A DNA stretch of 64,000 nucleotides from Saccostrea cucullata (taxonomy: Eukaryota). The translations under genes were made by a program, and so were the position numbers. This document shows positions 2,079-15,596 of the stretch, piece after piece; position 1 is the first letter of the stretch, and the number at the start of each line of letters is the position of its first letter. The notes under the pieces were generated by a model that made no database searches, had not been told where the DNA came from, and saw only the letters and a program-made list of their open reading frames with translations. The stretch is taken from contig NW_026930475.1 of NCBI RefSeq assembly GCF_032062105.1, positions 124,001-188,000 on the forward strand. Reading direction: 5' to 3'.

Positions 2079-2505
2079 AGGTGCATAGACACAGATTTTA
2101 AGTTGATATTTTCTGTATAATATCACGACTTATACCGGTATATCTTAATATCATTCCACACAAAAATTTATTAAAAATTTTATTTCATCTAAAAATTATT
2201 GAAACTTTAAATTTTTGGATGGGTTTGATTGACACATCCTTGCACTTTCACAAATTTAATTTAATTCTTAATATAAAACTTTAATCCAGAAAAATAATTA
2301 TATTCAGAATAGAAATATTCTAAAACAAAATTTGTAAAAGTGCAAGAATGTGTCAATCAAACCTGCCCAAAAATTTTAAGTTTCAATAACTTTTAGATGA
2401 AATAAGATTTTTAATATATTTTTGTGTGAAATGCTACAACAACATATACATGTAAGTCGTGATATTTTACAGAAAATATTAACTCAAATCTGTGTCTATG
2501 CACCT
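2079..2505. mobile_element. Palindromic MITE with TTAA target duplication (Kolobok-like termini)
   Basis: TTAA|AGGTGCATAGACACAGATTT ... AAATCTGTGTCTATGCACCT|TTAA, with inverted arms extending over most of the element. Confidence 0.8.
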
Positions 2506-2939
2506 TTAATAGTGTAAAAAAAAAATTAAAATTCATAGACCAACCTGAAGACGCTTTTTCATTCCAATTCCATTACAAGTTTTACTAATAAAAAGAAATA
2601 ACACCAACAAGAAACAAATTTGACTGTTTACTCTAGTCTGAACACCATAACTTGGCTGGGCAAAGCAACATTAACAATGAGAATAAGTTTTGTTTTTGAA
2701 TTATGACAACTTACTTAATACATTGTACCGGTATATTTTAACAGCCCAATGGATACCAAATTTAATGAGTACAATGTAAAATGCTACACAAATTACCATT
2801 GTATTTCACAACCAGAAGTCTCTGTCGAGACTGAAGCTCTACTGGTTTGTACTTATAGCAAAGGAAAAGAAAGGTTCTTAAGCAGTTGGGAACTGAAACT
2901 TTACCACAGCAATAAAAAGAATAATGATCCTTGATTAAG

Positions 2940-3856
2940 TCTCTTTATGTTCTTAGTGTAGTCTACTTGCATGCCACATTATATTATAATCAGACTTAAA
3001 CTGTATTTCGATTAGCATTTTGAGAGTTTTTAACAGAAATTTCTATTTTTAGCAACAATGGCAACACCGTTCATCGAAATCAAAAACCGATAAATAGAAT
3101 TATGTATCTTAGTGTAGTGTACTTGTGTGCCAAGTTATATTGAAATCAGACCAAAACTGTAAGCAGAGTAGCATTTTGAAAGAATTTCACAGAAATTTCT
3201 ATTTTTAGTAACAACGGCAACACCGTTCATCGAAATCAAAAACCGATATACAGAAATATGTATCTTAGTGTAGTCTACTTGTGTGCCAAGTTATATTGAA
3301 ATCAGACCAAAACTGTAAGAGAAGTAGCATTTTGAAAGAATTTCACAGAATTTTCTATTTTTAGTTACAACGGCAACACCGTTCATCGAAATCAAAAACC
3401 GATAAAATGAATTATGTATCTTAGTGTAGTCTACATGTGTGCCAAGTTATATTGAAATCAGACTTAAACTGTAAGAGGAGTAGCATTTTGAAAGAATTTC
3501 ACAGAAATTTCTATTTTTAGTAACAACGGCAACATCGTTCATCGAAATCAAAAACAGATACACAGAAATATGTATCTTAGTGTAGTGTACTTGTGTACCA
3601 AGTTATATTGAAATCAGACCAAAACTGTAGGAGGAGTAGCATTTTGAAAGAATTTCACAGAAATTTCTATTTTACAGTAAAAAAAAATCAAATTGTTTTA
3701 GAAATGGTGGCTGTACCAAACAACGGCAACACCGTTCATCGAAATCAAAAACCGATACACAGAAATATGTATCTTAGTGTAGTCTACTTGTGTGCCAAGT
3801 TATATTGAAATCAGACCAAAACTGTAGGAGGAGTAGCATTTTGAAAAACTGTTAAG

Positions 3857-3887
<31 letters not shown>

Positions 3888-3965
3888 GGACAGACAGACG
3901 GACGGACGACGGACGCATTACTATCGCATAAGCTCTTCTGGTCTCTGACCAGTAGAGCTAAAAAT
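2940..3965. mobile_element. HINE/Helentron-like element with 156-bp tandem array (about 5.5 units) and (GACA)n microsatellite
   Basis: CAAC(A)CCGTTCATCGAAATC at 3062, 3218, 3374, 3530, 3727; (GACA/GACG)n at 3857-3915; terminal hairpin CTGGTC..GACCAG then TAGAGCTAAAAA. Same family as 45595-46105. Confidence 0.8.
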
Positions 3966-4959
3966 CAAGCAGAGTGCTCTTTTTGAAAGGGCCATATTTT
4001 GACCTTGTACAATATACAAGCATTTTTCAAAACTGGAATTAATATTTTGACTTTTGAAGCATCTTTTATATATGAAATGGAAAATGGAAAAAAATGCTGA
4101 CGAAACATGAAGTTTTTGCCTGTAATTTTTCTTAAACACTACAATAGAAACCAAATTCAATTCTCATGTATTAATGTTTATCACAAGGAAAGGGACAGGC
4201 AAGTCCAGTATATATGGAGTTACATTTCAAATATGTACACTTATATTTCAGACTGCCCATTTAAAGTGTGGCTTCATTTAACTCAACTTACCAGGGTAAT
4301 TAACTGGTGCTATACATTTTAATTTCTACTAGACGTTTAAAATACTTGTATAAATTGCAACATGTTGTAAAAGACAATATAAACCAAATATGTGTCACTT
4401 AGTTTTAAACATTCTTCACAAGCATTCTAACAAAAAAATAAATTGAACAATTGTTTTTCCTCACATACATGCTCATTTAATGCATTCAAGGGTAAAAAAA
4501 AAACAGCAACATATCACAAATAATCGTAATATACATATTCATAAGAATAGTCAGAAACACTGGATGTGTTCCCTTCTAGCTTTTTAAAACCTGTATCTGC
4601 TTTGCTTGATACAGAAAAGCATTAATGATTTGGATTGCATACTCCTAGGAAGTTAAAATCATATTAAAACAGCTTTTTATGTCTTTTGTTAAAAAAAGCT
4701 ATCAACTCATTGTTTTCACGGTGAAAACAACACTGAATGAAATGGTGGCTGTACCAGGGCGTATATAAAGGAGATGGTACAGCGCAGTCTCTCACGGCCC
4801 TCGCTGTGTCTCACGCTCTCTCTCTCACTGGAGAATACACTGGGCGCTAGTGATGAGAATCAAACCACAATGTAGAATGGCTCCTCTTTCACACACTCTC
4901 TCCCTGGAGCTAACAATAGTCCATGACATGACTCCACTGTCATGGCGCCTTGCACTTTG

Positions 4960-15596
<10,637 letters not shown>

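What the first reader, a model, noticed from the sequence alone, without database searches (positions are those of the whole stretch)
4825..4962. Candidate stop-codon readthrough giving importin-alpha a CaaX (farnesylation) tail
Seen: the stop is UGA followed by CAA. An 8-bp stem-loop (CCATGACA/TGTCATGG, 4921-4945) lies 14 nt downstream. The frame stays open for 44 codons (QSARRHDSGVMSWTIVSSRERVCERGAILHCGLILITSAQCILQ) to TGA at 4825-4827, in a patch richer in GC than the rest of the UTR. The extension ends in C-I-L-Q. Known: UGA-C is the leakiest stop context, 3' stem-loops stimulate readthrough, CaaX with X=Q is a farnesyltransferase substrate, and lipid-dependent membrane partitioning of importin-alpha (palmitoylation) is described in Xenopus. 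Inference: a minor prenylated, membrane-anchored isoform. This could be coincidence.
Basis: partly seen in the sequence, partly recalled or inferred. Interest (0 to 1): 0.7.

Follow-up and report, generated by a model that had tools for sequence, protein, structure and literature searches.

The report
Oyster importin-alpha stop with CaaX tail
Just past the leaky-type stop codon of an oyster nuclear-import gene lies an open frame ending in a lipid-anchor motif, but it is most likely ordinary untranslated sequence, because the frame appears broken in another oyster genus; a protein-like tail behind the same stop in a probable clam gene is the better lead for real readthrough.

Summary
In detail: the KPNA3/4-type importin-alpha gene of a Saccostrea oyster (14 exons, protein identical to XP_062566367.1) ends in UGA-CAA, followed by an 8-bp stem and 44 open codons ending CILQ. 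In a close relative (7 runs) frame, stem arms and CILQ-stop are intact (p about 0.07 by chance), but the extension carries 10 variants, 6 of them amino-acid-changing, more than the UTR behind it. A frameshifted Magallana protein record that reads through this UTR aligns to it only with a frame-breaking gap (best 5 nt), lacks the 5' stem arm, and has a certain or likely stop by about codon 31 in each of three frames; a sequencing error there is not excluded. Eight distant orthologous loci, two paralogues and five read-through gene calls show no CaaX. The GC patch runs 125 nt past the second stop and folds no better than shuffles. Best reading: non-coding UTR with a chance CaaX (0.70). Lead found on the way: a clam-like orthologue with a 172-residue protein-like tail behind the same stop position.

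The parts
4960..15596 (-). KPNA3/4-type importin-alpha gene, 14 coding exons (15596-15531, 15323-15279, 9431-9268, 9092-8997, 8821-8736, 8416-8330, 8036-7822, 7507-7376, 7084-6956, 6848-6744, 6297-6226, 6116-5954, 5773-5682, 5055-4960), 515 aa
   Evidence: GT-AG exon chain translates exactly to P0004 = XP_062566367.1; IBB, 8 ARM and Arm_3 domains
4960..4962 (-). First stop, TGA followed by CAA AGT
   Evidence: TGA-CA unchanged in 7 covering runs, no edited base at 4960 listed
4828..4959 (-). 44-codon open frame in the 3' UTR ending C-I-L-Q; last 20 residues hydrophobic (GRAVY 1.24, 1 K/R)
   Evidence: 10 variants in relative, 6 non-synonymous and 4 synonymous
4825..4827 (-). Second in-frame stop TGA (followed by G); further in-frame TGA at 4794 and 4704
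4921..4945 (-).
   Evidence: arms unchanged in 7 runs, 2 variants in the loop; 5' arm incompatible with the Magallana peptide
4843..4949 (-). Predicted 5-bp long-range helix (4949-4945 with 4847-4843) closing a 107-nt multibranch fold that starts at +14
   Evidence: pair probability 0.73; whole fold not more stable than shuffles (z -0.59); both partners of pair 4946-4846 vary, phase unknown
4700..5055 (.). GC-richer patch (0.47-0.48 against 0.29), running 125 nt beyond the second stop
4620..4824 (-). UTR block behind the second stop, less variable than the extension (5 substitutions and 2 indel sites in 205 nt against 10 substitutions in 132 nt)
   Evidence: Fisher p 0.03 pooled; p 0.60 for run X1 alone against 4050-4824

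Best explanation
The gene ends in UGA-C followed by an open frame ending CILQ, and that frame is most likely ordinary GC-richer proximal 3' UTR in which the CaaX arose by chance. Translation would normally end at the invariant C-terminal F-x-F. UGA-C would leak at a low basal rate (established knowledge, not measured here); such a product would carry a hydrophobic tail of the kind that BAG6-type quality control clears (inferred), and a little of it might be farnesylated without being selected for. The UTR is kept at the nucleotide level between oyster genera, with indels of any length.
For: Magallana record P0021, frameshifted in the last exon, reads 31 codons of the homologous UTR: it aligns to the window (19.2 bits; 0 of 300 shuffles) but scores 0.1 bits with in-frame gaps only (0 of 240 in-frame simulations lose as much); best single break is a 5-nt gap at about 4921 (14.8 bits). 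Forced mismatches show no third-position excess (4 of 15, 3 of 15, 2 of 13 at positions 1, 2, 3). The 5' stem arm cannot be placed in it. In each frame a stop comes by about codon 31: certain in the record's own frame; codon 27 TGA or CGA in frame 0; a T-N-A codon in the third frame; in the last two the window's aligned base favours the stop. In the close relative 6 of 10 variants change the residue and the extension varies more than the UTR behind it, while oyster coding sequence is 490-512 of 515 identical. GC patch not coterminous, folding ordinary. No CaaX and no TGA-C in 8 of 8 distant last-exon loci (about 6 lineages), 2 of 2 paralogues whose end was found; no CaaX in 5 of 5 gene calls that read past the stop. 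119 of 120 homologues end in [FY]x[FY], none extended. Abundant readthrough is reported only for Pancrustacea (PMC5100048, passages; the word mollusc did not occur in its main text). With an assumed 8% of genes ending TGA-C, chance gives about 2 TGA-C plus CaaX genes per 30,000.
Against: No variant in the 31 pre-named sites (stem arms, CILQ, second stop) among 10 variants in 135 nt: p 0.066. No indel in the extension in the listed rows (about 1 expected from run X1's UTR rate, so weak). 4 of 10 synonymous is above the neutral 22-30% (p 0.16-0.35) and near the 43-45% reported for real mosquito readthrough regions. All features together are rare by chance (7e-8 per gene if the 8-bp stem is demanded). 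Magallana keeps TGA followed by C or T and can encode V-M-S-W at the same place. P0021 is one record on 2 contigs that already holds one frameshift; a second 1-nt error is not excluded (9.8 bits with a 1-nt break; more than one break is not significant, 6-36 of 150 simulations). A clam-like orthologue has a protein-like tail. Readthrough structures can be lost while readthrough persists.
Confidence: 0.7

Rival explanations
1. Functional readthrough restricted to Saccostrea: UGA-C plus the hairpin or the 107-nt fold let a few percent of ribosomes add 45 residues; farnesyltransferase modifies CILQ, and upstream cysteines could be palmitoylated, giving a membrane-tethered importin-alpha pool.
For: Context, stem and CaaX present; combination rare by chance; no variant in stem arms or CILQ-stop, p 0.066; stem more probable in the relative's haplotypes (0.56-0.88) and at 20 C; engineered importin-alpha-CaaX goes to the plasma membrane and rescues spindle orientation (PMC12238373, passages); readthrough is often gained or lost in existing genes (PMC5100048).
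Against: Probably not conserved in Magallana; 6 amino-acid variants, one in codon 2 next to the stop; CAA AGU is none of the strong hexamers listed (CUA, CGG, CAA UUA; PMC13517186); the stem starts at +18 and spans 25 nt against +9 to +16 and 50-177 nt for the listed stimulatory or candidate viral structures; no polybasic second signal.
Confidence: 0.12
2. The KPNA3/4 stop is a readthrough site in several bivalves, with fast-changing tails; the oyster tail is translated but its CaaX is incidental.
For: P0146/P0155 (JGI, Logan, ENA; last exon closest to Dreissena and Mya, 23 of 31) continue after F-N-F-W with 172 acidic, S/G/D/N-rich residues, 40% GNN-coded (p 1e-4 to 2e-10 against random DNA), next W after 115 residues; L-A after the W fits UGA-CUA-G. 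Magallana keeps TGA-C/T.
Against: The tail has no similarity to the oyster extension; its DNA could not be fetched, so the W may be TGG (stop lost) or TGA read by a code-4 gene caller, and long frames are what gene callers select; 4 of the 5 such calls look like plain UTR; stop codons of named bivalves were not seen.
Confidence: 0.15
3. The UGA is recoded otherwise: A-to-I editing to UGG (as in hepatitis delta antigen, where this adds a farnesylation motif) or selenocysteine.
For: The stop lies in a predicted helix in the 146-nt fold; HDV precedent (PMC10459925, passages).
Against: No change listed at 4960 in raw RNA reads (X22, about 63-73 reads, 3% and 3-read threshold; X21 at 10%, list cut); G is the least favoured 5' neighbour for ADAR; no Rfam match in 3900-5100.
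Confidence: 0.03

Closest known systems
Functional stop-codon readthrough that adds a C-terminal targeting signal (peroxisomal PTS1 in human, fly, yeast and mosquito genes)
   Same: Leaky UGA-C stop, short extension, terminal signal that only the long form has (PMC5100048, passages).
   Different: Those signals are conserved across orthologues without frameshifts; here the signal would be CaaX and is probably not conserved between oyster genera. No natural readthrough-made CaaX turned up in the 6 listings.
Hepatitis delta virus large antigen
   Same: Passing a stop codon adds a tail whose CXXX motif is farnesylated (PMC10459925, passages).
   Different: Made by ADAR1 editing of UAG in a virus; here the stop is UGA and no editing was seen.
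Palmitoylated importin-alpha (KPNA2 / Xenopus importin alpha-1) and engineered importin-alpha-CaaX
   Same: Lipid anchoring moves importin-alpha to the plasma membrane (PMC12238373, passages).
   Different: Reversible palmitoylation of another paralogue; KPNA4 is not mentioned in that text; the CaaX form there is artificial.
Alphavirus/coltivirus UGA-C readthrough with downstream extended stem-loop
   Same: UGA-C with a predicted fold that begins at +14 and pairs with a distal stretch.
   Different: Hexamer is CAA AGU, not CUA or CGG; fold no more stable than shuffles; closing helix only 5 bp.
Accidental readthrough into 3' UTRs cleared by BAG6 quality control
   Same: UTR-encoded tail with hydrophobic end (GRAVY 1.24; PMC10364623 seen as search listing and abstract start only).
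   Different: Not tested in oysters; a CaaX end could compete with clearance.

Membership tests
Importin-alpha, KPNA3/4 clade | IBB domain, ARM repeats, atypical last ARM, identity to annotated members | tested here: met
Functional stop-codon readthrough | Leaky context UGA-C | tested here: met
   UGA-CAA, kept in 7 runs; TGA-C/T in Magallana
Functional stop-codon readthrough | Strong hexamer (CUA-G, CGG, CAR-YYA) | tested here: not met
   CAA AGU; CAA AAU in the relative
Functional stop-codon readthrough | Stable, conserved 3' structure | tested here: inconclusive
   8-bp stem rare in shuffles (0.6%) and intact in the relative, but energy ordinary and 5' arm absent in Magallana
Functional stop-codon readthrough | Frame kept without frameshifts or early stops across orthologues | tested here: not met
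   Kept in the close relative; broken in the one Magallana record, with the caveat of a possible error in that record
Functional stop-codon readthrough | Excess of synonymous change in the extension | tested here: inconclusive
   4 of 10, p 0.16-0.35; no third-position excess against Magallana
Functional stop-codon readthrough | Ribosome footprints or peptides past the first stop | not testable with these tools
   no Ribo-seq or proteomics available
Farnesylated CaaX proteins | Terminal C-aliphatic-aliphatic-X with X = Q | tested here: met
   C-I-L-Q-stop; X = Q preference for farnesyltransferase is recalled knowledge
Farnesylated CaaX proteins | Second membrane signal (polybasic run or palmitoylated Cys) | tested here: inconclusive
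   1 K/R in the last 20 residues; Cys at codons 23 and 31 upstream
Farnesylated CaaX proteins | Motif conserved in orthologues | tested here: not met
   0 of 8 distant loci, 0 of 5 read-through gene calls, 0 of 120 homologues; homologous position not visible in Magallana
Stop-codon editing (HDV amber/W type) | A-to-G change at the stop in RNA reads | tested here: not met
   none listed at 4960
Selenoprotein | SECIS in the 3' UTR | tested here: not met
   no Rfam match in 3900-5100; UTR further downstream not scanned

The most novel reading that the evidence does not exclude
The KPNA3/4 stop is a recoding site in bivalves that gives lineage-specific tails, and in Saccostrea the tail ends in a working farnesylation signal: a natural, readthrough-controlled membrane-anchored importin-alpha, the cellular counterpart of the delta-virus stop-to-CaaX switch.
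Probability: 0.12. Interest if true: 0.75.

Novelty: not a real feature. Interest (0 to 1): 0.3.

Why it matters
If true, it would be a cellular case of readthrough supplying a prenylation signal (none seen in the searches), a second, irreversible route to the membrane pool of importin-alpha that scales nuclei and orients spindles in vertebrates, and functional readthrough in a mollusc, outside the clade where it is known to be abundant. As it stands it is most likely a chance motif; the clam-like tail (P0146) is the more promising entry to readthrough at this gene.

Tried and rejected
Homologue search with the read-through peptide at near length: 1 candidate, none scored; at longer length 5 hits, all over the last exon only. 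The 34-aa ATG-started frame inside the extension is not in the protein collection. Metagenome scan: 16 loci, 8 real last exons, none from oysters; the other 8 were weak partial matches and were dropped. Prokaryote genome scan: 4 weak archaeal/bacterial matches, not examined further. Viral contigs: nothing for P0146; 1 locus for the alignment, an unrelated gene. Run X24 laid nothing. Rfam: none. Pfam: none for P0146 or the read-through peptide. No inverted repeat of 14+ nt in 2500-5700. 43 further cluster members: 41 end in F-x-F, 2 are truncated forms, none extended. The fourth Arm_3 locus in the genome (L028) gave no recognisable last exon. Earlier findings of the scan: 5 look-ups, nothing. 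Compensatory change at pair 4946-4846 considered and not counted: phase cannot be read from Logan contigs, and if the 4946 allele sits with the unchanged 4846 the helix falls to probability 0.01. Magallana, Crassostrea and Ostrea DNA and the DNA of P0146 could not be obtained, and the Atlas gave no answer for P0146. No fold or complex prediction was run: it would not bear on the question. Supplementary candidate lists of the Drosophila and Anopheles readthrough papers were not read and might list an importin-alpha 3 orthologue.

Full report
Gene. The window holds a 14-exon importin-alpha gene on the minus strand (15596-4960). Its GT-AG exon chain translates exactly to P0004, the Saccostrea cucullata importin alpha-4-like protein XP_062566367.1, with IBB, 8 ARM and Arm_3 domains. 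A DNA search with the last exon and UTR gave one match in the genome. RNA of a close relative joins the previous exon at 5055 and covers the UTR to at least 4050.

Observation. TGA 4962-4960, CAA, 44 codons ending CILQ, TGA 4827-4825 and the 8-bp stem are as described. In 20,000 shuffles of the local UTR a 44-codon frame occurs in 8.1%, a strict CaaX end in 0.09%, both in 0.015%, the stem in 0.6%. With an assumed 8% of genes ending TGA-C (my estimate, from no call) this is about 2 TGA-C plus CaaX genes per 30,000, 0.4 with the length, and far fewer with the stem: rare per gene, not impossible in a scan of this size, and the features were chosen after the fact. The GC patch is equal in the last exon, the extension and the next 125 nt (0.47, 0.48, 0.48; then 0.29), and frame +1 is also open for 33 codons. 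Folding is ordinary (z -0.6 to -1.0); the named stem has pair probability 0.12-0.30 at 37 C and 0.56 at 20 C. It starts at +18 and spans 25 nt; the viral structures tabulated in PMC13517186 (passages) mostly start at +9 to +16 and span 50-177 nt.

Close relative. The run search listed 24 runs, 20 holding part of the stretch; I laid 8, of which 7 covered it (the lists for X21 were cut, 37 substitution rows and 13 indel rows not shown; counts for X1, X8 and three X15 records match the listed rows). The extension has 10 variant sites: non-synonymous 4955, 4946, 4929, 4905, 4852, 4840; synonymous 4957, 4930, 4863, 4846. The last coding exon has 2, both synonymous by codon position (5029, 4981). 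4 of 10 synonymous does not separate neutral (22-30%, p 0.16-0.35) from real readthrough regions (43-45% in mosquito; PMC5100048). The extension varies more than 4620-4824 (10 of 132 against 5 of 205, p 0.03; run X1 alone 5 of 132 against 24 of 775, p 0.60). No edited base at the stop was listed. A 5-bp long-range helix (4949-4945 with 4847-4843, probability 0.73) has both partners of one pair varying; phase is unknown, so it is not counted.

Other oyster genus. No Magallana DNA could be fetched, but P0021, a Logan protein in the Magallana gigas cluster (2 contigs), has a 1-nt frameshift in the last exon and so reads 31 codons of the UTR in frame +1. Back-translated, it aligns to the window UTR at 19.2 bits (0 of 300 shuffles), against 0.1 bits with in-frame gaps only; 0 of 240 simulated in-frame homologues lose as much. 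One break recovers most of the score (14.8 bits, a 5-nt gap near 4921; 9.8 bits if the break must be 1 nt); more breaks are not significant (6-36 of 150). A second sequencing error is therefore not excluded (simulations with one error reach the same loss in 141 of 240). Independently of that, the stop is TGA followed by C or T, the 5' stem arm cannot be placed, forced mismatches fall on codon positions 1, 2, 3 as 4 of 15, 3 of 15, 2 of 13, and every frame has a certain or likely stop by about codon 31, some 10 codons before the Cys position.

Wider family. 119 of 120 listed homologues end in [FY]x[FY]; none is extended or has Cys at -4. Eight last-exon loci from metagenomes (about 6 lineages, none an oyster) have stops TGA-A, TAA-A, TGA-G, TAA-A, TAG-C and TGA-G three times, extensions of 13-37 codons and no CaaX. 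Two paralogues end TAA-G and TAG-G. A HMMER scan gave 13 hits, 5 of them gene calls that continue past F with W, probably code-4 readings of TGA (inferred); none ends in CaaX. Four look like UTR. The fifth, P0146/P0155, clam-like by its last exon, has a 172-residue acidic tail, 40% GNN-coded, beginning L-A as UGA-CUA-G would give, unrelated to the oyster tail. It suggests real readthrough or a lost stop at this gene in another bivalve and is the reason for rival 2.

Literature. Abundant readthrough is placed in Pancrustacea only; readthrough-added PTS1 signals are known and conserved (PMC5100048, passages). A 2026 Drosophila survey has no occurrence of CaaX, prenyl, importin or karyopherin in its main text (PMC13278127, term search only; supplements not read). 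Engineered importin-alpha-CaaX is membrane-bound and functional (PMC12238373, passages). HDV adds a farnesylated tail by editing its stop (PMC10459925, passages). None of the listed papers (20 of 33; 25 of 781) held a readthrough term together with importin-alpha, and (6 listings) showed no natural readthrough-made CaaX by title or abstract start; subscription journals are not covered.

Verdict. Shown: the sequence features, their retention in a close relative, the variant pattern, the absence of CaaX elsewhere. Inferred: the frame break in Magallana (one indirect record), basal leakage and clearance. Most likely an ordinary UTR with a chance CaaX (0.70); bivalve readthrough with incidental CaaX 0.15; functional Saccostrea CaaX isoform 0.12; editing or selenocysteine 0.03.

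Noticed in passing
P0146 / P0155 (proteins; no locus): Clam-like KPNA3/4 last exon followed, after F-N-F-W, by a 172-residue acidic protein-like tail starting L-A: candidate real readthrough (UGA-CUA-G) or lost stop in a heterodont bivalve.
   Followed up: partly
P0021 (protein; Magallana cluster): A 1-nt frameshift in the last exon, seen on 2 contigs: error or a real allele that removes the C-terminal F-K-F.
   Followed up: partly
window 4739-4756 and 3701-3718 (-): An 18-nt UTR stretch recurs exactly 1 kb downstream inside a repeat array and nowhere else in the genome (2 matches): probably a local templated insertion.
   Followed up: partly
window 4704-4962 (-): The first four in-frame stops (4962, 4827, 4794, 4704) are all TGA; 12 of 15 stop triplets in any frame of 4700-5055 are TGA, so probably composition.
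   Followed up: partly
window 4620-4824 (-): UTR block behind the second stop is little changed in the relative; may hold regulatory elements; no Rfam match.
   Followed up: partly
window 5410-5660: Tandem array of about 32-nt units in the last intron.
   Followed up: no
window 5840-5950 (-): Intron start holds degenerate copies resembling the end of the preceding exon, i.e. a local tandem duplication across the splice donor (seen by eye).
   Followed up: no
window 3000-3700 and 10000-11300: Tandemly repeated units of roughly 120-140 nt, probably mobile-element or satellite DNA, downstream of the gene and in intron 2 (seen by eye).
   Followed up: no
L007, L010, L012 (1590 onward): Three related arthropod-like loci keep a 37-codon frame after TGA-G with several residue changes; no CaaX.
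   Followed up: no
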